NCBI GenBank assembly: GCA_002780005.1
Contig: PEWV01000060.1
Coordinates: 1 to 63,392, forward strand
Length of the DNA stretch: 63,392 nucleotides
DNA from: Candidatus Aquitaenariimonas noxiae
GTDB taxonomy: Bacteria > Omnitrophota > Gorgyraeia > Aquitaenariimonadales > Aquitaenariimonadaceae
Reading direction: 5' to 3'
The translations under genes were made by a program, and so were the position numbers. The notes beneath the pieces are model-generated. The model was given only the letters and a program-made list of their open reading frames with translations, made no database searches and was not told where the DNA came from. This document shows positions 26,007 to 38,696 of the stretch, piece by piece; positions within the stretch are counted from its first letter, which is position 1, and every line of letters starts with the position of its first letter.

Positions 26007-26822
26007 TTAACCTTCGGCGTGATGGTCCAGGTGTATGTGGGAATGGATGTGTATTTTGTCTTTATGCCTGTGGCTATGGATATGCACAAGGTTATTCGCC
26101 TGAAGAAGGGCGGCGTCTTTCAATATCGAGTCCGGCTCCCCGGACTTGACTATTTGTTTATTATGGCTAAACACATAGACAGTGTCAGATATCTCCTCAA
26201 CTATATGCAGGTCATGCGTAGAGGTGATTATAGTTCTACCTGAAATATTCTCTTCTATAAGCAGGTCAATGATGTGCCTGGTGGTCAATGGGTCAAGGCC
26301 GGCGGTAGGTTCGTCTAAAATGAGGACTTCCGGTTCGATGATCAAGGTGGACGCTATAGCCACTTTTCGCTTTTCGCCTATGCTTAACTGATGCGGCGGC
26401 CTATTAACGAGATCTTTAATATTTAAAATGGCGAGGAGCCTCTCGAGACGCTTTTCGATCTCCTGTTCCTCTATCCCAAGCTGCAGGGGACCGAAAATAA
26501 TGTCATCCTTTACGGTGGGGCAAAATAACTGAACATCGGGATTTTGAAAAACTAAGCCTACTTTTTTACGAAAATCCTTGGAAAAAACCTTATCATTAAA
26601 AATATCCTCATTCAACGCGCTGCCAAAAGCCGTAATGCTGCCGCGTTCCGGAAAAATGAGGCCGTCCAGCATATGTAAAAGAGTTGACTTACCTGAACCG
26701 TTTGCGCCTATCACAGCTATCTTTTGGCCTTTTTCTATTTTAATATCTATCCCGCGCAAAGCCGGATATTTTCCAAGATATGAGAAGTGAACATCTTTTA
26801 ACTCAAATATCGTATTAGCCAT
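26007..26822 (-). CDS. nikO: ECF Ni/Co transporter ATPase with His-rich tail
   Basis: GANGSGKS, VFQNPD, LSIGEK, LDEP; tail HIHSHRH..HIHSHIHLDHH. Confidence 0.9.
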   Translation of the reverse strand: MANTIFELKDVHFSYLGKYPALRGIDIKIEKGQKIAVIGANGSGKSTLLHMLDGLIFPERGSITAFGSALNEDIFNDKVFSKDFRKKVGLVFQNPDVQLFCPTVKDDIIFGPLQLGIEEQEIEKRLERLLAILNIKDLVNRPPHQLSIGEKRKVAIASTLIIEPEVLILDEPTAGLDPLTTRHIIDLLIEENISGRTIITSTHDLHIVEEISDTVYVFSHNKQIVKSGEPDSILKDAALLQANNLVHIHSHRHKDKIHIHSHIHLDHHAEG

Positions 26823-26828
26823 AATGCC

Positions 26829-27674
26829 TTAAACTCTCGCTTTTGCGCCCAAATAAGTAAGTCCCATAAACAAAATTATTACAAAAAATAACCACAGCCA
26901 GTCTTTTGCGCTGGTTTTAAAATCATGCAATATGACAGGTTCTCCGTCGTATCCCCGCGAAAGCATGGCATTATAGACCTCTTCATTCAAACGGTAGGAC
27001 CTGTACCATAGAAAAGCTATATTTAAGGCGACTATGCGCTGGCCTCTTTTATAATGTACCTCTAGTCCCACGCGGCTTTTTATCGCCGTATAAGTATTTT
27101 CGATTATTTCCATAAAAAGGTATATGTACCTGTAACACATGCCGAGTATCATAACAAATATTTGAGGCACCTTGAAGATGCGCAAGGCTTTCAAGAGCTC
27201 AAAATGTTTCGTGGTAATGCTGAGCAGGACAGCAAAAGACACTGAAGTTATTACGCGCGTGACAAATAACAGCGCCCCGAAGAAGCCCTGACGCGTAATA
27301 ATAAGTTTAAAACCAAGCAGATCGATCACGGCTAATGTTTCCCCTGGGGTAAAGACACTGAATAAAGCGGGAATAGCGATAAATAGCGAGAATAAAGGAA
27401 TAAAAATCCAGGTGCGCTTTAAGAAAAAACCCAGGTTAATTTTAGAAAGACAGGCCAACGATAAACATAGCGCGTACAGGCATAATAAAATAAGGATATC
27501 TTTTATAAGAATTGCCTGGATGATGAACAGAAGAAAAGTCGCTGCTTTTATTCTCGGATCCAATGATTGCAATAATCCTTTTCTTAAAGCGTATTCATCC
27601 GCGAAAACAGATTCTTTTAAGAAGGATAGAGCGCCCATGATCGAGCGTTCTATAAAATTATTATTCTTAAGCAT
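26829..27674 (-). CDS. nikQ: ECF transmembrane component (CbiQ/NikQ)
   Basis: LDPRIK, RYI, AMLSRGYDG. Confidence 0.9.
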   Translation of the reverse strand: MLKNNNFIERSIMGALSFLKESVFADEYALRKGLLQSLDPRIKAATFLLFIIQAILIKDILILLCLYALCLSLACLSKINLGFFLKRTWIFIPLFSLFIAIPALFSVFTPGETLAVIDLLGFKLIITRQGFFGALLFVTRVITSVSFAVLLSITTKHFELLKALRIFKVPQIFVMILGMCYRYIYLFMEIIENTYTAIKSRVGLEVHYKRGQRIVALNIAFLWYRSYRLNEEVYNAMLSRGYDGEPVILHDFKTSAKDWLWLFFVIILFMGLTYLGAKARV

Positions 27675-27677
27675 TTT

Positions 27678-28013
27678 TTAATCGTCTTTCTTTGCCAATA
27701 TTTTACCGATAAGCAATACTACGATAACTGTTGCAGTTATCCCTACAACCGCTGATATAATATAGGAAAAACTTAAACGCGGCAAGCCTTTTTCTTCCCA
27801 ACCCCTGAAGGCATAATCAGGAATGGGCGCACTCCAGAGGCTTGAGAGTTTTTCCAGACCTCTCGGAATATATCCGACTAATTCCTTGATCGTATCCGTT
27901 CCCCACTCGCCCCAGGCGTCACCTGCCTTAAAATGATCGGGCAACAACAACCCAAGCGGAGAGAGCACGATCAATATTGCTAATCCTATCCATAATTTCG
28001 TAGTAATTTTCAT
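27678..28013 (-). CDS. nikN: NikN/PDGLE-domain auxiliary component
   Basis: LSPLGL..AWGEWG..APIPDYAF. Confidence 0.85.
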   Translation of the reverse strand: MKITTKLWIGLAILIVLSPLGLLLPDHFKAGDAWGEWGTDTIKELVGYIPRGLEKLSSLWSAPIPDYAFRGWEEKGLPRLSFSYIISAVVGITATVIVVLLIGKILAKKDD

Positions 28014-28015
28014 AA

Positions 28016-28696
28016 CTACATCCCCCCTTCTTCGATAACTTCGGGAGCTTCTTTTTGGAGATATTTGACTACTAAGGCGGTAACAACGGCTTCCACCCAG
28101 CCGAATATCAAGAGGTGTTCACCCGCCATTGCCGGTACCGCGATTTTTAATCCGTAAGGGCAATAAAGAGCCTGGCCGTTCGCGGTATGGCATAATAATG
28201 GCTGTAACCCAAACTCAACGCCTGCCAGAAAAGCCGCCACGTTAATACCGATATATCCGGCTGCGCCTGCCGCTAACATTCTCCTGCTTGAATCTGCAGA
28301 GGCATTATAGCTGATTGCCTTATAGACGTAATAACCCGTAAACGGCAGCACAAAAGCCATATTAAAGCAATTGGCCCCTATCGCGGTAATACCACCGTCG
28401 CCAAATAATAATGCCTGGACCACCAGGGCAACCGTTATGGCAATAGAGGCTGCCCAGGGCCCTAATAATATTGCCACCAAAACTCCGCCTACAGCGTGTC
28501 CCGTGGAACCGCCCGGTATGGGCACATTGAACATCATGATCACAAAACTAAATGCGGCGCCTATAGCAAGCAAAGGGACTTGTCTTGCCTTGAGCGTCTT
28601 CTTAACGATGCGTGAAGCGGCTGTCCATATAGGCAGCATGATCGCGTAAAAAATCCCGCATGTTGCCGGCCCTAAATAACCATCAGGTATATGCAT
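28016..28696 (-). CDS. nikM: ECF Ni/Co substrate component (CbiM/NikM)
   Basis: N-terminal MHIPDGYL; TGHAVGG; GDGGITA. Confidence 0.93.
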   Translation of the reverse strand: MHIPDGYLGPATCGIFYAIMLPIWTAASRIVKKTLKARQVPLLAIGAAFSFVIMMFNVPIPGGSTGHAVGGVLVAILLGPWAASIAITVALVVQALLFGDGGITAIGANCFNMAFVLPFTGYYVYKAISYNASADSSRRMLAAGAAGYIGINVAAFLAGVEFGLQPLLCHTANGQALYCPYGLKIAVPAMAGEHLLIFGWVEAVVTALVVKYLQKEAPEVIEEGGM

Positions 28697-28710
28697 AAAT
28701 CTCCCCCTTC

Positions 28711-29619
28711 TTAAAATGTATAGACAAACGTCGCGACAATAGAATCGTTTGCGTCTGTATTGGTCCCTGTTAATATGCGCTGATAGGTAATTAAGGTCTG
28801 AATTTTGTCATTTGACCATCCGATACCCGGAGCGATAGTAAGATAATTAACATCCGATCCTGGGGTTCTTGCCCCATCCTCTCTTCTATCTCCCTGCAAA
28901 AATCCATTGACCTCGAACATGAGGTTGAAGCCTTTCGGCAGAAAATATTCTACGCCGAAATCGTAGTTAAGATAATCCGCGTAACGCGTCTTGATACCAT
29001 CAACATATACTTGTTGCGAAATGCTATATGTGGCATCGGCATAAAGTATGAATGGTTTCAACTTCTTAGCAAGATTAATGCCAAGACCCTGATCCCATGA
29101 GCCGTCCCCCATTAAATCTGCTCCTAATTTATCAGGATCGGCGTTTTCATATTTGCCCGTAGGCATTCTGAGCTGAAATAATCCTGTTATATGAGGAAAC
29201 CACCCTTTTTCTTCTAAAGCGCAATAGCGCATAAAAAGATAACTGTCGCCAAAACCATCGGCATGGGCGCTGGAAGAGTCCTGCTTTACGTAATTCTCCT
29301 GATAGACTGTTTGAGCGTCAAGCTCAAGCCTGTCAGTAATGCCATATTGCGCGAAAAGCTGTTCCTGAAACTGATATTTTTTGTCCCCTTTAGGCAAAGG
29401 ATCATAATGTCCGTCCGAATTGAAAGCGCCTCTTGTCCTGTTATAAAGTAAAAATGGCTGAACCACAAATTTACCTTTACCACATAAAGGCGCTGTCCAC
29501 GCCGTAATAGGACCTGCTGAAGACGGATTCCATTCTTCTTGACCGGCATCGGCGCTAACGAGCACCGGGTCAAAGAAAATGAGATTAATAAATATTACCC
29601 AAAGAAAAACTTTTCGCAT
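28711..29619 (-). CDS. Outer-membrane beta-barrel (Phenol_MetA_deg / transporter family-like)
   Basis: Signal peptide, GFGDSYL, PTGKY, C-terminal VYTF. Confidence 0.7.
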   Translation of the reverse strand: MRKVFLWVIFINLIFFDPVLVSADAGQEEWNPSSAGPITAWTAPLCGKGKFVVQPFLLYNRTRGAFNSDGHYDPLPKGDKKYQFQEQLFAQYGITDRLELDAQTVYQENYVKQDSSSAHADGFGDSYLFMRYCALEEKGWFPHITGLFQLRMPTGKYENADPDKLGADLMGDGSWDQGLGINLAKKLKPFILYADATYSISQQVYVDGIKTRYADYLNYDFGVEYFLPKGFNLMFEVNGFLQGDRREDGARTPGSDVNYLTIAPGIGWSNDKIQTLITYQRILTGTNTDANDSIVATFVYTF

Positions 29620-29634
29620 GCGTATCTCCTTATC

Positions 29635-29661
29635 TTGCTACTAAAATTATTTTCGTGCTAC
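29635..29661. promoter_or_regulatory. NikR operator candidate 2
   Basis: TTGCTAC-N13-GTGCTAC, same spacing as the site at 30115. Confidence 0.55.
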
Positions 29662-29682
29662 TACTGGATAAAAAAATAATGC

Positions 29683-30099
29683 CTACACTATGCCCTGACC
29701 TGTTGTTGACATACTAAGGGTTGAATGCTTTACCCCTTTTACGGCCTTCAGGCTGTCTGACAGGTGCTGAACCTTTTCCGGACTGCCTTTTAAGGCAAGT
29801 ATCTCGAGGCAGTTATCGTGATCCATATGAATATGCTGTGAGGAAATAATGCAAGAACCGAATTTATGCTGGATATCCAAAAGCTTATTCACTAATTCGC
29901 GTTTATGATGGTCATAGATCAGCGTAGCCGCGCCTATGACCTCATCCGCGTCTTTCCATTCCTTTTTGACCAGTTCCTGCCGGATCAGGCCCCGGAACGC
30001 CTCGGAGCGATTGGTATAACTTTTGGCCTTGATAAGCTTATCGAATTTTAGAAGAAGCTCCTTGTCTAAAGAAACTCCGAATCTTGCTATTGGTGACAT
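29683..30099 (-). CDS. nikR: Nickel-responsive regulator NikR
   Basis: RFGVSL, NRSEAFR, YDHH, HIHMDHDNCLE. Confidence 0.96.
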   Translation of the reverse strand: MSPIARFGVSLDKELLLKFDKLIKAKSYTNRSEAFRGLIRQELVKKEWKDADEVIGAATLIYDHHKRELVNKLLDIQHKFGSCIISSQHIHMDHDNCLEILALKGSPEKVQHLSDSLKAVKGVKHSTLSMSTTGQGIV

Positions 30100-30179: not shown

Positions 30180-30857
30180 TTATTTACCGTCCTTCAATTT
30201 TTCAGGATGGTGTCTGACCACTTCTGCCTGAACCATATAGATCACGTCCTCAGCAATATTTGTAGCGTGATCACATATACGTTCTAGAAAACGCGCTATC
30301 AGCAACAGTTGAACAGCCCTTGGTGCCGTAGATCCGTCCTTCACCATATAATCTTCTACAAGTTCTTTCTGTATTAAATTTCTCAGTTTATCGGCGTCCG
30401 GGTCTGATAATAAAACCTTTTTAGCCAATTGAATATCGGATCTTACGAACGCGTCTATGGCCATTTTCACCATATTTTGTGCTATCTCGCTTAATTTAGG
30501 AATGTCAATAAGCGGTTTTAAAAGCGGTTTGTCTATGATCTCAAGCGTGCGCTGCGCTATGTCCATGGCTATATCGGCGATCCTCTCAAGCTCATTGTTC
30601 AATTTCATCCCTGTCGTGATAAATCGCAGATCTTTCGCCATAGGCTGGTATCGAGCGATCAGATCTATGCATTTCTCGTCTATAAGCAACTCAAGCTCAT
30701 CTATTTTGTCATCATTTTCTATTATTTTTTTTGCCATCTCTTTATCGCGATTCTTGAGCGCTTCGATCGATTTATAGATCGCCTCCTCGGCAAAAGCCCC
30801 CATCTTTAATATATCTTTATTCAACTCTTTTAATTCTTGATCAACATGTCTTTCCAT
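30180..30857 (-). CDS. phoU: Phosphate transport regulator PhoU
   Basis: DDKIDELE, QPMAKDLR, LERIAD, LERICDHATNIAE. Confidence 0.96.
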   Translation of the reverse strand: MERHVDQELKELNKDILKMGAFAEEAIYKSIEALKNRDKEMAKKIIENDDKIDELELLIDEKCIDLIARYQPMAKDLRFITTGMKLNNELERIADIAMDIAQRTLEIIDKPLLKPLIDIPKLSEIAQNMVKMAIDAFVRSDIQLAKKVLLSDPDADKLRNLIQKELVEDYMVKDGSTAPRAVQLLLIARFLERICDHATNIAEDVIYMVQAEVVRHHPEKLKDGK

Positions 30858-30951: not shown

Positions 30952-31707
30952 TTATCCGTATCTCCCGGTAATATAGTCTTCCGTGCGTTTATCGCTTGGC
31001 GCGGTAAATATATTCTCGGTTTTACCAAATTCTACTAATTCACCTAAAAGCATAAAACCCGTATTATCAGAAACGCGTGCAGCCTGCTGCATATTATGCG
31101 TCACTATTATTATAGTATAATTGTCCTTTAATTCACGCATTAATTCTTCTATCCGCGCCGTTGCCTGCGGGTCAAGAGTCGAGCAGGGTTCATCCATCAG
31201 CAATATGTCGGGCTTAACAGCAATAAGCCTGGCAATACACAACCTTTGCTTTTGCTCTAACGATAAGCTTAAGGCCGGTTTATCCAATTTATCCTTCAAT
31301 TCATCCCACAAAAGAACGCTTTCTAAGCTTTCTTTAACGATCTCGTCTAATTTATCCCGTCTTATTCTCTCCCCGTGTATCTTTTCGCCAAAAACAATAT
31401 TCTCGTAAATAGACAACGGGAACGGATTGGGCCGCTGGAAAACCATTCCCACTTTTTTGCGTAAAGTCACAAGGTCTTTACTGCCGTTAAGAATATTCAT
31501 ACCATCGATCAAAACTTCACCGTTCGTCCGCACGCCATCGATCAGATCGTTCATTCTGTTAAAAACTCTAAGCAAAGTCGATTTGCCGCATCCCGAAGGA
31601 CCGATTATGGCTGTAATCCTATTCGCCTCTATGCCTGAGTTTATGTTCTTTAAGGCGTGAAAAGTACCATACCAAAGGTTTAGATTTTTAGTTGTAATTT
31701 TTGCCAT
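30952..31707 (-). CDS. pstB: Phosphate ABC ATPase PstB (copy 2; degenerate signature LSLEQ)
   Basis: [26 protein letters not shown]; signature LSLEQKQR. Confidence 0.95.
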
Positions 31708-32525
31708 TATCCGAATTTCCCCCTGACATAACCGTCCGTGCGTTTATCTTGCGGCGCGGTAAATATTCTATCCGTCTTATCTAATTCAACGAGTTCACCG
31801 TTTAAGAAGAACGCTGTTTTGTCCCCAACCCTTGCAGCCTGCTTTACATTGTTGGTTACTAAAACTATGGTGAATTTCTCTTTAAACTTAACCATTGCAT
31901 CTTCTACTTTAGCGGTGGAGATAGGATCAAGCCCTGAACAAGGCTCATCAAACAAGACCACCTCGGGCCTTACCGCTAATGTCCTTGCGATGCAAAGACG
32001 CTGCTGCTGCCCTCCCGATAATTTAAAAGCCGATTCGCTTAACCTGTCTTTAACTTCCTCCCAAAGATATGCCTGTCTCAAGGTTTCTTCTACTTTTTCC
32101 TCCAATTTTTTCTTTCCTCTTTCACCATGCATTCTTATCCCATAGGCTACATTATCAAATATGGATAACGGAAGAGGCAGGGGCAGCGCAAAAACCATGC
32201 CTATTTTACGGCGCAATTCTTCCACTTTGATCCCGCGAATATCTTCTCTTTCAAGCTCTATCGCTCCGGTTATTCTATAATTAGTATTAAGCTCATTAAG
32301 GCGATTAAGCGCCCTAAGAAAAGTTGTTTTTCCGCTATTGGCCGGCCCTATCACGCTTAAGATCTCATTAGATCGGATCTCCATATTGACATGCTTTATG
32401 ACCTGCGCTGGGCCAAACCATATGTTTAGATCGTGTATCTCAAATTTTACCCCGTTAGAAATTGTTTCTTGATTATTTCTTCCCGAGGTTTCTTCTAATT
32501 TTTTATTTCTAACGGGGTTTACCAT
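31707..32525 (-). CDS. pstB: Phosphate ABC ATPase PstB (copy 1; degenerate Walker A, Q-loop and H-loop)
   Basis: [30 protein letters not shown]. Confidence 0.93.
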
Positions 32526-33367
32526 TTCTTTCTTTTCCTAAATTTATAACGTATTATTATAGCCACTAAATTCATGATTAAAACGAGCGCCAACAAAACA
32601 AACGCCGTCCCGTATCTTATCTTTTCATCAACATTAGGAACCTGTGTTGAAATAACATATAGATGATATGGCAATGCCATAGCCTGATCGAATATCGACG
32701 AAGGAAGCTGAGGCAGATAAAAAGCCGCTACGGTAAAAAGGATCGGCGCGGTCTCTCCGGCCGCTCTTCCCAATCCTAAGATAGTCCCGGTCAATATGCC
32801 GGGTACGGCGTTAGGTAAAACTATATTTCTTATGGTCTGCCATTTGCTTGCTCCTAAAGACAGGCTTACCTCGCGGAAGGAATACGGTACGCTTTCCAAT
32901 GCTTCGCGCGAAGTAGTAATGATTATAGGAAGTATCATAATGCCTAAAGTCAGCGAACCCGAAAGGATCGAAGCTCCAAATTTGAAAAATATAACAAATA
33001 ACGCCAAACCGAAAAGCCCATAAACTACTGACGGTACGCCTGCCAAATTAACGATTGCCAATTTTATAAGCCGCATAAGCAGATTCTCTTTTGAATACTC
33101 ACTAAGGTATATCGCCGCCAATAAACCGATCGGCAAGGCGAAGATAATGGTACCTGTAACTAAATACACTGTTCCGACAATAGCGGGGAAAATACCGCCT
33201 GCGCGCATCCCATGCCTTGGTATATCGGAAAGGAATTGCCAGTCAATAGCCGGCAGTCCTTTTTGAATGATCACAAAAACGATAAAACCAACAGGCACCA
33301 CTATTAAAAGTGTGGCGAGAAATAAAAAGAAAAAGGCTATATTCTGTGTTATGTGCGGATTTTTCAT
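32519..33367 (-). CDS. pstA: Phosphate ABC permease PstA
   Basis: LAGVPSVVYG, GRAAGETAP. Confidence 0.95.
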   Translation of the reverse strand: MKNPHITQNIAFFFLFLATLLIVVPVGFIVFVIIQKGLPAIDWQFLSDIPRHGMRAGGIFPAIVGTVYLVTGTIIFALPIGLLAAIYLSEYSKENLLMRLIKLAIVNLAGVPSVVYGLFGLALFVIFFKFGASILSGSLTLGIMILPIIITTSREALESVPYSFREVSLSLGASKWQTIRNIVLPNAVPGILTGTILGLGRAAGETAPILFTVAAFYLPQLPSSIFDQAMALPYHLYVISTQVPNVDEKIRYGTAFVLLALVLIMNLVAIIIRYKFRKRKKW

Positions 33368-33422: not shown

Positions 33423-34286
33423 TCATTGCCTTTTGTGTAAAAACAGATCTGCCGTTACGTTGATCGCAAAACTAATTATAAATAGAACTATCCCTATAGC
33501 GAATAGCGCAAAATAATGTTCACTCCCCACTACCGCTTCGCCCATCTCGGCGGCGATCGTAGCCGTTAAAGTCCGCACAGGCGCAAATATGCTATTCGGC
33601 ATAACGGCAGCGTTACCTGTAATCATCATAACAGCCATGGTTTCGCCTATCACCCTTCCGATCCCCAGCATAATGGCAGCAACTATACCTCTGGACGCCG
33701 CGGGAAGCATCACGCGATGAATCGTCTGCCAGTGAGTCGCCCCCAAAGCAAATGCGCCTTCTTTATAAGTCTTCGGAACAGAGTAAAGCGCGTCTTCAGC
33801 GATCGAGACGATCGTAGGCATGGCCATAAACGCAAGCATTATAGAGCCGGATAACGCGGTAAGACCTGTCGGTAAATGAAAAAAGGTTTTCACGAACGGC
33901 ACGAGTGTCACCATACCAATAAATCCCAAAACTACGCTTGGTATAGCCGCTAGCAGCTCTATTCCCGCTTTAAGGATCTCTTTTAGATTTGCAGGAGCTA
34001 CCTCCGCGATATAGACGGCGCAACCGACACCGATAGGAATAGAGATGATCGCGGCGCCTAAAGTCACTAAAAGCGAGCCTAAGATCAGAGGGAGTATTCC
34101 CAATTGAGGCGGGTCTGAAATAGGATACCAATTCTTACCGAAAAGGAACTTAAAAGGGCTTACGGTGCTGAATACCGCAAGCCCTTCTTTGAGAAGGAAC
34201 AAAAAGATCAGCACCACAAAAAATATTGATGCCAATCCGCATATTAATATGAGTTTCTCAATAATAAACTCTTTAAGTTTGCGCAT
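33423..34286 (-). CDS. pstC: Phosphate ABC permease PstC
   Basis: ELLAAIPSVV, GRVIGETMAV, AEMGEA. Confidence 0.95.
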   Translation of the reverse strand: MRKLKEFIIEKLILICGLASIFFVVLIFLFLLKEGLAVFSTVSPFKFLFGKNWYPISDPPQLGILPLILGSLLVTLGAAIISIPIGVGCAVYIAEVAPANLKEILKAGIELLAAIPSVVLGFIGMVTLVPFVKTFFHLPTGLTALSGSIMLAFMAMPTIVSIAEDALYSVPKTYKEGAFALGATHWQTIHRVMLPAASRGIVAAIMLGIGRVIGETMAVMMITGNAAVMPNSIFAPVRTLTATIAAEMGEAVVGSEHYFALFAIGIVLFIISFAINVTADLFLHKRQ

Positions 34287-34291
34287 CGAAT

Positions 34292-35146
34292 TTATTTTAT
34301 GATCGGAACAAAATCGGTTTTTAAAACAATGTCCTGGCCTTCTTTATAAAGCGCAAAATCTATAAATTTTTTCACCAAACCCTGGGGTGCGCCATTGACA
34401 TAAATAAACAATGGTCTTGATATAGGATATTTCCCATCTACGACATTTTCGATCGTCGGCGTAATATACTCTGAGCTCGCGTCTTTGGCAACGGCTATTG
34501 CTTTTTGTTTTGCGGATATATACCCCATACCATAATATCCTATCGCTGACGCATTACCTGCGACTTCATCGGCGATTGCCTGTGAAGAAGAAAGAAGAAG
34601 CGCGCTTTGCGCGAACTCTTCCTTACCGTCAGCATTGCCTTTTCTCAAAACGTGTTCTTTAAAATAAACATGGGTGCCGGAATTTATCTCACGTGAAAGT
34701 ATTACGATTTTTTCATCCTTACCACCTACATCTTTCCAGTTGGAAATGGTACCTGTAAAAATTCCTGCCAGCTGATCTAAGGTAAGTTTGCTGACCGGAT
34801 TGGCCGGATTCACTACTACCGCAAGGCCGTCCAAAGCTACTTTGATCTCTGTTGGATTTATACCTTTTTGGTTAGCAAGCGATATTTCTTTTCCTTTAAT
34901 ACTTCTTGAAGCCATTGCAATATCGCAAGTCCCGCTTATAAGGCTGGAAAATCCCGTACCCGAACCGCCGCCCGTAACCGCAACAAACTCTCCGGGGTTC
35001 TCTTCCATGTACTTCTCTGCCCATGCCTGGCCCAAATTCACCATAGTATCCGAACCCTTAACCTGTATTGAATTTTTCCCCGATTTGGCAAGAGCCGGAC
35101 CCGTGAGCATAAGCGCCATTAAAATAATTAACCCCTTCTTGAACAT
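34292..35146 (-). CDS. pstS: Phosphate-binding protein PstS
   Basis: KGSDT, GGGSGTG, SGTH, YPISRPL. Confidence 0.95.
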   Translation of the reverse strand: MFKKGLIILMALMLTGPALAKSGKNSIQVKGSDTMVNLGQAWAEKYMEENPGEFVAVTGGGSGTGFSSLISGTCDIAMASRSIKGKEISLANQKGINPTEIKVALDGLAVVVNPANPVSKLTLDQLAGIFTGTISNWKDVGGKDEKIVILSREINSGTHVYFKEHVLRKGNADGKEEFAQSALLLSSSQAIADEVAGNASAIGYYGMGYISAKQKAIAVAKDASSEYITPTIENVVDGKYPISRPLFIYVNGAPQGLVKKFIDFALYKEGQDIVLKTDFVPIIK

Positions 35147-35233: not shown

Positions 35234-36532
35234 CTAGAATTTCATATTCCAATCCACCTATGCAACAATAGCCGGACTAGACTGTGTAGAGCCAAACTGG
35301 CTTTTAATCTTTTGAGCCTGATAAAAATCAAAACCGATCCATGTGTTCTTGGCTAAACCCCAATCGAACATAATTTCATGCGCTTTCATTCCGGTCTTGC
35401 CGTCATAACGGTCTGAATCAGGCAGTGTATCAAGAATGGCGTCTCTGTCAAGTGCGGCATAGTTATATCGCACCTGCCAATCAGCCCATTTTTCTACCTT
35501 CTCGGCTCCCAGTTTACACCCAAGCATATACCCTTTATTATATTTAATACCTGAATCGACATTCTGCACATATTCTCCGAACAGGGCTATATACGGTAAA
35601 TCCAAACCTATCGGCTTAAACGGCTCTTTAAAACTGAGCTCGAGGGCCGGTATGATTTCCCTATAATCATACTTCAAACGTCCGCTGACAGTACTGCCGC
35701 TCACAGTATAACCGGTATTAGTACCTTTTGTGCCGGACAATAAGTTGTCTTTTGCATTTGCGAAATGATAGTAAGAAATCGCACCCTTAAGAGAGGTCGT
35801 ATCATTGATCGCAAGGTTAAAACCAGGCTGTATCGCGTACATCATGGGATCATGATCGGATGCTGATTGTTCCTCTATTACATAAACTCCGGAATTCAAA
35901 AAAAGGTCAAGCTCAGAATTGATTTTTTTGGTCAATTTAACAGCGCCGCCTTCCGGATTGATATCTGTATCCCAAACAAGATCTCCCGGTTCCCAAAGGT
36001 TATTTTTAAATTTGCCTCCTATAAAAGTGGCCCAGGAAAAAGGCGCATATTGCGCATAGGCATAATCAAAAGCAATAGCCTTCTTGCTGAAACCTTTTTC
36101 AAGCGACGCATTAGTCGATCTTGCGGCATCTGCTGAACCGTCAGACAGGCCGGTTGCTATGCCGATCCCAGCCAAAATCTTATCGTTCACCTTTGACTCG
36201 AGCCCCAACCTCGTTCTAATGCGGACCCTATCGCGATAAATTGAATTATTTGTTGTACTTTTTGAATGGTCACGTTGATATCTTAACCTAAAATCGCCTT
36301 TCAGCTTAGTGTTCTGAACCCATTGGGGCAAAGAAGAACTCTTGCCTTCAGCTATCTCTTTTTTAACCTCTTCCTTTGTTTCCGTAATGATCTGCTGCGC
36401 TTCGCCCGGAGTAAGCACACCCTTTTCAATGAGCTTATTGACCAGCGTGTCAATTTCGCCGGCAAAACAATATCCTATACCTATCCACATAAATACAGCC
36501 ATAAATACCGCAAACCTAAACAACTTTTTCAT
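35234..36532 (-). pseudogene. Putative porin (phosphate-associated) with in-frame TAG 8 codons before the natural end
   Basis: GDFRLRY, DINPEG, DSD motifs; ...PAIVA*VDWNMKF* (TAG at 35258-35260, natural TAG at 35234-35236). Confidence 0.8.
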
Positions 36533-36920: not shown

Positions 36921-38696
36921 CTATTTCGGGATAGTGAACCAAAACTTCGAGCCGAGGCCTTCAGCGCTTTCTACGCCTACATTGCCGCCGTGAAGCTCGA
37001 CAATGTGTTTAACGATAGAAAGCCCAAGGCCGGTTCCGCCGAGTTCGCGCGAGCGCGCTTTGTCTACACGGTAGAAACGCTCAAAAATGCGGGGAATGTC
37101 TTTTTCTGGAATGCCGATTCCTTTATCTTCTACAAAAACTTTTATTTTTCCATTTACTTCCTGGATATATATCCGAATAGCGCCCTTTTCTTTGTTAAAT
37201 TTTATTGCATTATCAATAAGGTTAGTGAACACCTGCTCCATTCTATCTTGATCGGCTGTTACCGAAATACTTATAGGCAACTCATTCTTAACCTCTATAC
37301 CGTTCTTCTTCAGTTGAGCCTTAAATGTTGAGATGGCTTCTTCAAGTTGTTGCCTTAAATTAAAGCTTTTCTTATTAAGTATTATTTCTTTTGATTCAAG
37401 ATGTGACAGAGAAAGCAAATCCTCAACTAAGTTATTAAGACGTTCAGTATGGTCATATATAATCTTCAAGAAATTACGGTTATTTTCCTTATCATCCAAA
37501 GCGCCCTCAAGTAGCGTCTCCACGAAGCCTTTTATGGAAGTAAGCGGTGTTTTTAACTCATGCGAAACGTTAGCAACAAAATCACTGCGCATGGTCTCAA
37601 GCCGTCTCATTTCGGTTATGTCATGTATGACCGCCAAGCACCCGTTTATGCTATCATTGTCAAAAATAGGAACGGCGTTGATCTGAAATATTTTACGCAC
37701 AGGCAAAACAAGGCTTATTTCACCCGAGACGGATCTACCGTTCTTTATGGCATCGTTTATAGATTCCGAGATATCATTATTACGTATTGCTTCTAACAAC
37801 AATTTACCTTCCACGTATTTTTTGGAGATACCGAATATCTTCTCAACGGTAGGATTAATGGAAATCACGCGAGCGGACTTATCTACAACGATCACACCTT
37901 CGATCATGCTATTAAAAATTGCCGCTACCTTTTGGTTTTGGGCTTCGATCTCTTTGATCTTATCCTCTATATCTTGCGCCATGTTATTTAAGGTATTAGC
38001 GAGCTCACCTATCTCATCTTTAGAGTTATGGATTATTCTGCGGCTAAAATCGCCCTCTGAAAATTTGCGTGAAATCTGGATCATCCTGTTGATCGGTTTA
38101 ATAGTGCGGCGTGCAACAATAGAACCTAAGATAAAAGCGAACACAAGCGCAAAAAGCAGTCCAATAAAGACTATTCTTCTAATCGCGAATAATGTCTTTT
38201 GTACGCTCTCTAAAGGAAGGGACAATCTCAGTATTCCTGGGATTGCGGTCTTATTTTTAATAGGTACAGCAACATATAGCATATCTATCTTTAGGGTAGA
38301 TGAATAACGCGTATCTATACCGGTGACACCGGTTAAAGCAACTTTTACTTCCGGCCGGTAAAGATGGTTTTCCATTTGAGGAATTTCTTCCTGTGATTTT
38401 TCGGAATCGGCCAAAACCCTGCCTTTGCTATCAATAATAGTAATACGGCATTTTGTCTTAAGCCTCGAGGCCTTCACTAGAGATTCTAAGTACGGGGTAT
38501 CTTCCTGCCTCAGGCGCTCAGGGAAAATCTGGCTTTCGATCAAATTAGCCTGAGTAATTAGGGAGGATTCAATGTTGCGGATGGAGTTCTCTTCTAAATT
38601 TTTATCTAAAAAGAAGGCTATAAATCCGAAGGAAACTAAAATTACAAAAATATAAGAAAAAATCAGTTTTAGTTTAAAACTAATCTTCATATTCAA
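36921..38696 (-). CDS. phoR: PhoR-type sensor histidine kinase (HAMP-PAS-HisKA-HATPase)
   Basis: VANVSHELKTPLTSIKG, NLIDNAIK, FERFYRVDKARSRELGGTGLGL. Confidence 0.92.
   Translation of the reverse strand: MNMKISFKLKLIFSYIFVILVSFGFIAFFLDKNLEENSIRNIESSLITQANLIESQIFPERLRQEDTPYLESLVKASRLKTKCRITIIDSKGRVLADSEKSQEEIPQMENHLYRPEVKVALTGVTGIDTRYSSTLKIDMLYVAVPIKNKTAIPGILRLSLPLESVQKTLFAIRRIVFIGLLFALVFAFILGSIVARRTIKPINRMIQISRKFSEGDFSRRIIHNSKDEIGELANTLNNMAQDIEDKIKEIEAQNQKVAAIFNSMIEGVIVVDKSARVISINPTVEKIFGISKKYVEGKLLLEAIRNNDISESINDAIKNGRSVSGEISLVLPVRKIFQINAVPIFDNDSINGCLAVIHDITEMRRLETMRSDFVANVSHELKTPLTSIKGFVETLLEGALDDKENNRNFLKIIYDHTERLNNLVEDLLSLSHLESKEIILNKKSFNLRQQLEEAISTFKAQLKKNGIEVKNELPISISVTADQDRMEQVFTNLIDNAIKFNKEKGAIRIYIQEVNGKIKVFVEDKGIGIPEKDIPRIFERFYRVDKARSRELGGTGLGLSIVKHIVELHGGNVGVESAEGLGSKFWFTIPK

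What the first reader, a model, noticed from the sequence alone, without database searches (positions are those of the whole stretch)
30952..32525. Two PstB paralogues with complementary defects: an asymmetric (one dead site) phosphate ABC importer
Seen: PstB-1 (31707..32525) has an altered Walker A (GPANSGKT), Q-loop Gln to Ala (VFALP) and switch His to Asn (VTNN) but a perfect LSGGQ. PstB-2 (30952..31707) has canonical Walker A, Q-loop, Walker B and His but signature LSLEQ. Known: each ABC site combines Walker A/B, Q and H of one subunit with the signature of the other. All five deviations therefore fall into one composite site and the other site is fully canonical. Degenerate sites are well known in heterodimeric exporters (TAP, CFTR, TM287/288); I do not know of one described for a Pst importer. 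Inference: an obligate heterodimer whose non-hydrolytic site could sense nucleotide or signal to PhoU/PhoR.
Basis: partly seen in the sequence, partly recalled or inferred. Interest (0 to 1): 0.78.

Follow-up and report, generated by a model that had tools for sequence, protein, structure and literature searches.

The report
Phosphate importer with one degenerate ATP site
This groundwater Omnitrophota bacterium powers its phosphate-uptake pump with two different ATPase subunits whose conserved, complementary changes leave one normal and one crippled ATP pocket; this design is well known in drug exporters, recurs in many uncultured phyla, and I found no description of it for phosphate importers.

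Summary
On the minus strand lies phoR, a Porin_5 gene, then pstS-pstC-pstA-pstB1-pstB2-phoU.

- **PstB-1 (31707-32525):** Q-loop Gln to Ala, switch His to Asn, Walker A GPANSGKT, and an intact LSGGQ.
- **PstB-2 (30952-31707):** fully canonical except for the signature LSLEQ.

In the head-to-tail ABC dimer, all these changes fall in one composite site.

This is neither chance nor decay:
- All 58 PstB-1-type genes in related genomes keep Ala and Asn. All 54 complete downstream partners have a non-GG signature (53 have Leu-Glu).
- The order pstSCA-B1-B2-phoU is constant in every locus that reaches that far, apart from two where a long stop-to-stop ORF disturbs the sort order.
- dN/dS is about 0.06 for both genes.
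- The two families co-evolve (r = 0.91).
- The two genes overlap by one base.

"Dead site" overstates the case. PstB-1 keeps the Walker A Lys/Thr, the Walker B Asp, the catalytic Glu and the A-loop aromatic, so it probably binds ATP and hydrolyses it poorly.

The proposed sensing or PhoU-signalling role has no evidence. Degenerate sites are already described in the fused-NBD importers RbsA and NupO. I therefore class this as a new variant of a known kind, widespread in uncultured phyla and absent from the literature I could search.

The parts
31707..32525 (-). pstB1: PstB-1-type NBD, 272 aa. Motifs: Walker [10 protein letters not shown]-loop VFALP (Gln to Ala), signature LSGGQ intact, Walker B LFDEP with the catalytic Glu kept, D-loop SGLD, switch VTNN (His to Asn), Lys at switch+3. 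The first ~22-24 residues are a low-confidence extension.
   Evidence: (TIGR00972 335.8 bits, cutoff 343.2). AF2 model pLDDT 87.1 with residues 1-22 below 50. Foldseek TM 0.95, rmsd 1.4 A to E. coli PstB 9k3x_C.
30952..31707 (-). pstB2: PstB-2-type NBD, 251 aa. Canonical Walker [10 protein letters not shown]-loop VFQRP, Walker B LMDEP and switch VTHN; signature LSLEQ (Gly-Gly to Leu-Glu). Its ATG shares one base with the pstB1 stop (TAATG), with a GGGGGA Shine-Dalgarno-like stretch upstream.
   Evidence: (TIGR00972 377.3 bits, above cutoff).
32519..33367 (-). pstA permease. Overlaps the pstB1 ATG by 7 bases.
   Evidence: TIGR00974, 298 bits.
33423..34286 (-). pstC permease.
   Evidence: TIGR02138, 295 bits.
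34292..35146 (-). pstS phosphate-binding protein.
   Evidence: TIGR02136, 270 bits.
30180..30857 (-). phoU, the last gene of the operon.
   Evidence: TIGR02135, 201 bits. phoU follows PstB-2 in the related loci that extend that far.
35258..36532 (-). Porin_5-family outer-membrane porin upstream of pstS. Ends at an in-frame TAG where a homologue has Gln.
   Evidence: PF16930, 173 bits.
36921..38696 (-). PhoR-like histidine kinase (HAMP-PAS-HisKA-HATPase_c) upstream of the operon.
   Evidence: A homologue sits upstream of pstS in about half of the related loci.

Best explanation
The operon encodes a Pst phosphate importer whose motor is an obligate PstB-1/PstB-2 heterodimer rather than the usual PstB homodimer.

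**The two sites (shown by sequence):**
- Site A is built from the Walker A/B, Q-loop and switch of PstB-2 plus the LSGGQ of PstB-1. It is fully consensus and is the catalytic site.
- Site B is built from the P-loop side of PstB-1 (Q-loop Ala, switch Asn) plus the LSLEQ of PstB-2. It is degenerate.

**Why the heterodimer is obligate (logic from ABC architecture):** either homodimer would carry two impaired sites. Only the mixed dimer has one intact site.

**How it works (inferred by analogy with heterodimeric ABC exporters):** site B still binds ATP, because the P-loop Lys/Thr, Walker B Asp/Glu and the A-loop aromatic are invariant. It turns ATP over slowly or not at all and acts as a stable hinge or latch. 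ATP binding and hydrolysis at site A alone drive the inward/outward switching of PstCA. That would mean about one ATP per cycle.

**Origin (supported by the tree):** the pair arose from one ancient duplication. It has since been inherited, and probably transferred, as a unit with its own pstSCA and phoU.
For: - **Motifs and mapping:**. The head-to-tail geometry of PstB, with Walker A/B of one monomer and LSGGQ of the other, is shown for E. coli PstSCAB in PMC12976172.
- **Conservation in PstB-1-type genes:** 58/58 have Q98A, H210N, F103L, C47S and D-loop A183G (E. coli numbering), and 54/58 have Q213K. All 58 keep K49, D178 and E179 and an F or Y in the A-loop.
- **Conservation in PstB-2-type genes:** 53/54 have G156L and G157E, and are otherwise canonical.
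- **Wider sampling:** the same holds in 120 close and 120 distant PstB-1-type protein clusters and 119/120 PstB-2-type clusters.
- **Constant operon:** pstS-pstC-pstA-B1-B2-phoU occurs in loci labelled Omnitrophota, Planctomycetota, Acidobacteriota, Aminicenantota, Elusimicrobiota, Ignavibacteriota, Chrysiogenota and Myxococcota.
- **Phylogeny:** PstB-1-type is one clade (SH-aLRT 100) and PstB-2-type is one clade (SH-aLRT 90). PstB-1 plus PstB-2 as a single clade is not rejected (p-AU 0.82), and the constrained tree is 18 lnL units better.
- **Co-evolution:** pairwise distances of the two families correlate at r = 0.91, with 0 of 2000 Mantel permutations as high.
- **Purifying selection:** median dN/dS is 0.061 for PstB-1 and 0.058 for PstB-2.
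- **Translational coupling:** one-base stop/start overlap.
- **Intact fold of PstB-1:** pLDDT 87 and TM 0.95 to E. coli PstB.
Against: - Heterodimer formation, nucleotide occupancy and loss of hydrolysis at site B are all inferred.
- PstB-1 keeps the catalytic Glu, unlike many degenerate exporter sites, so residual or conditional hydrolysis at site B cannot be excluded.
- The Glu that replaces the second signature Gly would lie near the ATP gamma-phosphate. It could disfavour ATP, leaving the site ADP-bound or empty, rather than trap it.
- In E. faecalis, an excess of one tandem PstB can replace the other (PMC12096839). This shows that tandem pstB genes need not imply an obligate heterodimer, although both E. 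faecalis copies are canonical.
Confidence: 0.78

Rival explanations
1. Both sites are catalytically active. Asn at the switch and the retained catalytic Glu suffice for hydrolysis in PstB-1, and the changed residues only tune kinetics or coupling. The pair would then be a heterodimer without a truly non-hydrolytic site.
For: The catalytic Glu, Walker A Lys/Thr and Walker B Asp are invariant in PstB-1-type proteins. dN/dS of 0.06 shows the whole pocket is under constraint.
Against: Four residues that contact the nucleotide, the Mg-water or the gamma-phosphate are replaced together in the same site: Q-loop Gln, switch His and both signature Gly. From my own knowledge of HisP, MalK and HlyB, not tested here, single changes of the switch His or the signature Gly strongly reduce ATPase. 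The substitutions are fixed alternatives, not conservative ones.
Confidence: 0.12
2. The two genes encode alternative motors, PstB-1 or PstB-2 homodimers used under different conditions, or one main ATPase plus an accessory one, as proposed for E. faecalis pstB1/pstB2.
For: In E. faecalis, excess PstB2 substitutes for PstB1 (PMC12096839).
Against: Each homodimer would have two impaired sites. The genes are always adjacent in the same order and overlap by one base. They co-evolve at r = 0.91. The Firmicute tandem pair in L068 has the consensus signature, Q-loop and switch in both copies (one copy has Walker A GPSGSAKS) and groups with canonical PstB, not with either clade.
Confidence: 0.05
3. 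PstB-1 is a decaying duplicate, a pseudo-ATPase on its way to loss, with no specific role.
For: It scores just under the TIGR00972 trusted cutoff and lacks two catalytic residues.
Against: dN/dS is 0.061, the same as its partner. The replacement residues are invariant across orthologues down to about 55% identity in eight labelled phyla. The predicted fold is intact. LSGGQ is perfectly kept, as needed to complete the consensus site.
Confidence: 0.02

Closest known systems
Canonical PstSCAB with a PstB homodimer (E. coli; PDB 9k3x, 9k3y, 9k3s; PMC12976172)
   Same: Same operon logic (pstS, pstC, pstA, pstB, phoU) and the same type I importer parts. The PstB-1 model superposes on E. coli PstB at TM 0.95 and 45% identity. 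PstB-2 passes the PstB equivalog model.
   Different: There are two different NBD subunits instead of one. One composite site lacks the Q-loop Gln, the switch His and both signature Gly. PstB-1 falls just under the PstB equivalog cutoff.
Heterodimeric ABC exporters and channels with one degenerate nucleotide-binding site (TM287/288, TmrAB, BmrCD, PatAB, TAP1/2, CFTR; review PMC7756269)
   Same: Same logic. Non-consensus catalytic residues in one NBD and a non-consensus signature in the other converge on one site, leaving one consensus site.
   Different: Those are type IV exporter folds with NBDs fused to the transmembrane domains, whereas this is a binding-protein-dependent type I importer with free NBD subunits. 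Here the catalytic Glu is retained and the Q-loop Gln is lost. From my own knowledge, many exporters instead replace the Glu.
Fused-NBD importers RbsA and NupO of Bacillus subtilis (PMC11466899)
   Same: These are importers for which one degenerate ATP site has been noted from sequence.
   Different: Their two NBDs are fused in one polypeptide, belong to a different importer class and lack the Walker A Lys in the degenerate half. Here two separate PstB paralogues keep all nucleotide-binding residues.
Tandem pstB1/pstB2 of Firmicutes (Enterococcus faecalis, PMC12096839; B. subtilis PstBA/PstBB)
   Same: Two adjacent pstB genes sit in a pst-phoU operon, and the two copies have unequal roles in E. 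faecalis.
   Different: [quoted passage not shown] The Firmicute tandem pair sampled here (L068) branches among canonical PstB. It is an independent duplication without complementary degeneracy.

Membership tests
PstB, phosphate ABC transporter ATP-binding protein (TIGR00972 equivalog) | Scores above the curated whole-protein cutoff (343.2 bits) | tested here: met
   PstB-2 scores 377.3 bits.
PstB, phosphate ABC transporter ATP-binding protein (TIGR00972 equivalog) | Scores above the curated whole-protein cutoff (343.2 bits), applied to PstB-1 | tested here: not met
   PstB-1 scores 335.8 bits. TIGR00972 is its best hit by far, but it is 7 bits below the cutoff. It is a divergent PstB paralogue.
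PstB, phosphate ABC transporter ATP-binding protein (TIGR00972 equivalog) | ABC NBD fold closest to solved PstB | tested here: met
   The AF2 model of PstB-1 has pLDDT 87.1. The top Foldseek hits are E. coli PstB 9k3x_C and 9k3s_C, at TM 0.95 and 0.91.
PstB, phosphate ABC transporter ATP-binding protein (TIGR00972 equivalog) | Encoded with pstS, pstC, pstA and phoU | tested here: met
   The same order occurs in the related loci.
ABC transporters with one degenerate and one consensus nucleotide-binding site | Two non-identical NBDs | tested here: met
   The paralogues are 48% identical, and 40-57% within pairs across 54 genomes.
ABC transporters with one degenerate and one consensus nucleotide-binding site | Non-consensus catalytic residues of one NBD and a non-consensus signature of the other fall in the same composite site, while the other site is consensus | tested here: met
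   PstB-1 has Q98A and H210N with LSGGQ intact. PstB-2 has G156L and G157E with the catalytic motifs intact.
ABC transporters with one degenerate and one consensus nucleotide-binding site | The degenerate site binds nucleotide but hydrolyses it poorly (biochemical asymmetry) | not testable with these tools
   This needs ATPase, trapping or structural experiments. Only the retention of binding residues is shown.
ABC transporters with one degenerate and one consensus nucleotide-binding site | The two subunits physically form a heterodimer on the transporter | not testable with these tools
   No multimer prediction was available. Indirect support comes from co-evolution at r = 0.91, constant adjacency and the one-base overlap.
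Heterodimeric type IV ABC exporters (TM287/288, TmrAB, TAP) | Exporter-type transmembrane domain fused to each NBD | tested here: not met
   The NBDs are free 251- and 272-aa proteins. The membrane subunits are the PstC and PstA importer permeases. It works like these exporters but is not a member.
Firmicute tandem pstB1/pstB2 | Belongs to the same duplication (shared clade) | tested here: not met
   The L068 tandem pair branches within canonical PstB, apart from the PstB-1-type and PstB-2-type clades. Its signature, Q-loop and switch are canonical in both copies; one copy has Walker A GPSGSAKS.

The most novel reading that the evidence does not exclude
The degenerate pocket may be a purpose-built regulatory site rather than a passive hinge. 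Several fixed replacements would then shape a pocket that reads cellular ATP/ADP or phosphate status and sets transport rate, or PhoU/PhoR signalling. These are Ala and Asn on the PstB-1 side, Leu-Glu in the PstB-2 signature, Gly in the PstB-1 D-loop, and usually Lys at switch+3. A related reading is that the design halves the ATP cost per phosphate. That would suit the energy-limited groundwater and sediment lineages in which this Pst subtype is found, sometimes directly beside a canonical pst operon (L002, L036, L044).
Probability: 0.15. Interest if true: 0.75.

Novelty: new variant of a known kind. Interest (0 to 1): 0.55.

Why it matters
Pst is the textbook high-affinity phosphate importer and the input to Pho-regulon signalling. 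It has been studied only with homodimeric PstB, or with two canonical PstB subunits.

This finding points to a conserved, multi-phylum Pst subtype built on one consensus and one degenerate ATP site. It would extend the "one working site" principle from exporters to a binding-protein-dependent type I importer. It also gives a natural system for asking how many ATP a type I importer needs per cycle, and what a non-hydrolytic site contributes.

Some genomes carry a canonical and an asymmetric pst operon side by side, so the two designs probably serve different regimes. In practice, annotation pipelines name both genes plain phosphate ABC ATP-binding proteins and hide the distinction.

Tried and rejected
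1. **A false lead from a regular expression.** In one search the pattern seemed to show that about a quarter of PstB-2 homologues had Lys or Arg in place of the switch His. This was an artefact: it matched the N-terminal "KIVTKNL". Restricted to the C-terminal half, 119 of 120 have VTHN.

2. **Which permease does PstB-1 dock on?** In asymmetric operons the EAA loop of PstA differs more from canonical PstA than PstC does from canonical PstC. The canonical set is mostly Firmicutes, so lineage confounds this. I treat it as a weak hint only.

3. **A Glu-Lys latch between the PstB-2 signature and PstB-1 switch+3.** Four PstB-1-type genes (L039, L043, L046, L055) have Ala at switch+3 while their partners keep LSLEQ. 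The pairing is therefore not obligatory. The test neither supports nor excludes it.

4. **Looking for a cultured or named carrier.** A profile search with distant PstB-1-type proteins returned only metagenome-assembled genomes. Cluster look-ups gave no names. tblastn against plasmids gave only canonical PstB below 60% identity.

5. **RNA evidence.** Only DNA metagenome runs hold the locus.

6. **Whole-genome search for a second, canonical pstB.** The 63-kb window holds no other pstB.

7. **Heterodimer structure prediction.** This was not possible, because the structure tool folds single chains only.

8. **Cyanobacterial tandem pstB genes (Synechocystis sll0683/sll0684).** They are mentioned in papers, but I could not obtain the sequences to check their motifs.

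Full report
**What is in the window.**

The minus strand between 30180 and 38696 carries these genes, in order:

| Gene | Coordinates | Identification |
|---|---|---|
| PhoR-like histidine kinase | 36921-38696 | HAMP-PAS-HisKA-HATPase_c |
| Porin | 35258-36532 | Porin_5 family |
| pstS | 34292-35146 | TIGR02136 |
| pstC | 33423-34286 | TIGR02138 |
| pstA | 32519-33367 | TIGR00974 |
| pstB-like gene 1 | 31707-32525 | see below |
| pstB-like gene 2 | 30952-31707 | see below |
| phoU | 30180-30857 | TIGR02135 |

- Close relatives of both ATPases come from Candidatus Omnitrophota genomes assembled from metagenomes.
- The same 1574 bases occur, with 0-1 differences, in contigs assembled independently from several groundwater metagenome runs. 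The unusual codons are therefore not assembly errors.

- PstB-1 reads GPANSGKT / VFALP / LSGGQ / LFDEP / SGLD / VTNN.
- PstB-2 reads GPSGCGKS / VFQRP / LSLEQ / LMDEP / STLD / VTHN.
- The two are 48% identical.
- PstB-2 passes the PstB equivalog model at 377 bits against a cutoff of 343. PstB-1 has the same best hit but falls 7 bits short.
- An AlphaFold2 model of PstB-1 is confident, with pLDDT 87. Only residues 1-22, a lineage-specific N-terminal extension, are disordered.
- The model superposes on E. coli PstB (9k3x_C) at TM 0.95 and rmsd 1.4 A. PstB-1 is thus an intact nucleotide-binding domain.

In PstSCAB, as in all ABC proteins, each ATP is held by Walker A/B of one monomer and LSGGQ of the other (PMC12976172). 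It follows that the Ala and Asn of PstB-1 and the Leu-Glu of PstB-2 face the same pocket. The other pocket, formed by the PstB-2 P-loop side and the PstB-1 LSGGQ, is fully consensus.

**It is conserved, not accidental.**

A scan of one genome per species returned 80 loci.

- 58 loci carry a PstB-1-type gene.
- In every locus where the contig continues (54), the next gene is PstB-2-type.
- The order is pstS-pstC-pstA-B1-B2-phoU wherever the contig reaches. In L048 and L050, long stop-to-stop ORFs disturb the sort order.

Aligned against 48 canonical PstB sequences including E. coli (E. coli numbering):

| Clade | Substitutions | Retained residues |
|---|---|---|
| PstB-1-type | Q98A, H210N, F103L, C47S and D-loop A183G in 58/58; G46N and S50T in 56/58; K99 replaced by Leu/Met/Ile in 58/58 (Leu in 53); Q213K in 54/58 | K49, D178, E179 and an aromatic A-loop residue in 58/58 |
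| PstB-2-type | G156L and G157E in 53/54; K99R in 54/54; a few helical-subdomain changes | every catalytic motif |

- The same pattern holds in 120 close and 120 more distant PstB-1-type protein clusters, and in 119 of 120 PstB-2-type clusters.
- Some distant PstB-1-type proteins have an ordinary Walker A (GPSGSGKT). The invariant hallmarks are therefore Ala at the Q-loop and Asn at the switch, not the P-loop change.
- Record titles name Omnitrophota, Planctomycetota, Acidobacteriota, Aminicenantota, Elusimicrobiota, Ignavibacteriota, Chrysiogenota and Myxococcota. Labels on metagenome-assembled genomes are not always reliable.

**Evolution of the pair.**

- In a maximum-likelihood tree of 103 sequences, PstB-1-type proteins form one clade (SH-aLRT 100) and PstB-2-type proteins another (SH-aLRT 90). 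The internal branching orders mirror each other.
- Holding the two clades together as one group is not rejected (p-AU 0.82). That constraint even gave a tree 18 log-likelihood units better than the quick free search. A single ancient duplication followed by complementary specialisation is therefore the simplest history.
- Pairwise distances among PstB-1 sequences and among their PstB-2 partners correlate at r = 0.91, with 0 of 2000 permutations as high.
- Median dN/dS is 0.061 for PstB-1 and 0.058 for PstB-2. The "defective" subunit is as constrained as its partner.
- In the window the pstB1 stop and the pstB2 start share a base (TAATG), with a GGGGGA Shine-Dalgarno-like stretch before it. This fits coupled, equimolar synthesis.

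**Most likely mechanism.**

- Shown by sequence and architecture: only the mixed dimer has an intact ATP site, and each homodimer would have two impaired sites.
- Inferred by analogy with heterodimeric exporters (review PMC7756269):
  - The degenerate site still binds ATP, because all binding residues are invariant.
  - It hydrolyses ATP slowly or not at all and works as a hinge or latch.
  - The consensus site drives the PstCA conformational cycle, so roughly one ATP is spent per cycle.
- Open points:
  - The retained catalytic Glu leaves room for residual hydrolysis.
  - The signature Glu might repel the gamma-phosphate instead of trapping ATP.

I therefore call the site degenerate, not dead. 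I put 0.78 on the obligate asymmetric heterodimer reading.

**Rivals.**

| Rival | Confidence | Main argument against |
|---|---|---|
| Both sites active | 0.12 | Four catalytic or contact residues are replaced together in one pocket |
| Alternative homodimers, or main plus accessory ATPase as in E. faecalis (PMC12096839) | 0.05 | Complementarity of the defects, gene overlap and co-evolution |
| Decaying duplicate | 0.02 | dN/dS and invariance |

On the second rival, both E. faecalis proteins are canonical. The Firmicute tandem pair sampled here branches among canonical PstB.

- The Walker A change is not a defect.
- "Dead site" is not shown.
- The idea that the site senses nucleotide or signals to PhoU/PhoR has no evidence, because phoU follows pstB in canonical operons too.

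**Novelty.**

- Full-text searches combined PstB with degenerate site, heterodimer, consensus site, cryo-EM and tandem paralogues. None found a description of this arrangement.
- The 2025 E. faecalis paper states that no earlier study addressed tandem pstB genes.
- The 2026 E. coli PstSCAB structures are homodimeric.
- Degenerate sites are common in exporters, and have been noted from sequence in the fused-NBD importers RbsA and NupO (PMC11466899). The principle itself is therefore known.
- Earlier notes of this scan report the same pair in at least 45 other genomes, with the same reading. These are unchecked AI notes. I re-derived every point used here.
- My verdict is a new variant of a known kind: widespread, apparently unrecognised, and of solid but not spectacular interest (0.55).

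**Limits.**

I could not ask whether this genome also has a canonical pstB. The window has none, but three related loci carry a complete canonical pst operon directly upstream of the asymmetric one.
- No multimer prediction, no RNA data and no cultured carrier could be obtained.

Noticed in passing
window 35234-35260 (minus strand), end of the Porin_5 gene 35258-36532: The porin ends at an in-frame TAG. The window reads '...PAIVA*VDWNMKF*', while the homologue in L034 reads '...TLVQVDWNMKF' with Gln at that position, so the last beta-strand is cut off. The TAG is present in contigs from four groundwater runs.
   Followed up: partly
L002 1-7500, L036 1-7500, L044 1-7550: In three related genomes a canonical pst operon (pstC-pstA-pstB-phoU, with consensus PstB; cut short at the contig start in L044, which shows only pstB-phoU) lies directly upstream of the asymmetric pstS-pstC-pstA-B1-B2-phoU operon. 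Some organisms therefore keep both designs side by side.
   Followed up: partly
L068 10377-11204: In the Firmicute Lacticigenium naphthae tandem pstB pair, the first copy has Walker A GPSGSAKS, with the Gly before the Lys replaced by Ala, and is otherwise canonical. This may be a mild, independent asymmetry in a Firmicute pair.
   Followed up: no
window 32454-32525 (minus strand), N-terminus of PstB-1: The only canonical start codon gives a 24-residue Lys/Glu/Asn-rich extension before the NBD, and the ATG overlaps the pstA stop by 7 bases. The extension is predicted to be disordered (pLDDT below 50). Only some relatives share it (272-aa forms); most are 248 aa.
   Followed up: partly
P0349 (a 50%-identity cluster representative): This PstB-1-clade protein has Asn at the switch and SGLD in the D-loop but still has Gln in the Q-loop (VFQSF). 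It could be an intermediate or a reversal, but it sits on a long branch and is only 228 aa.
   Followed up: no
window 26007-30099 (minus strand): Directly downstream of phoU lie a NikR-like regulator (29683-30099), a 302-aa protein with a signal-peptide-like N-terminus (28711-29619), which an earlier scan note reads as an outer-membrane barrel, and a CbiM/N/Q/O-like ECF-type metal uptake set ending in an ABC ATPase (26007-26822). I used that ATPase only as a tree outgroup. The gene names come from my reading of the translations, not from a family search.
   Followed up: no
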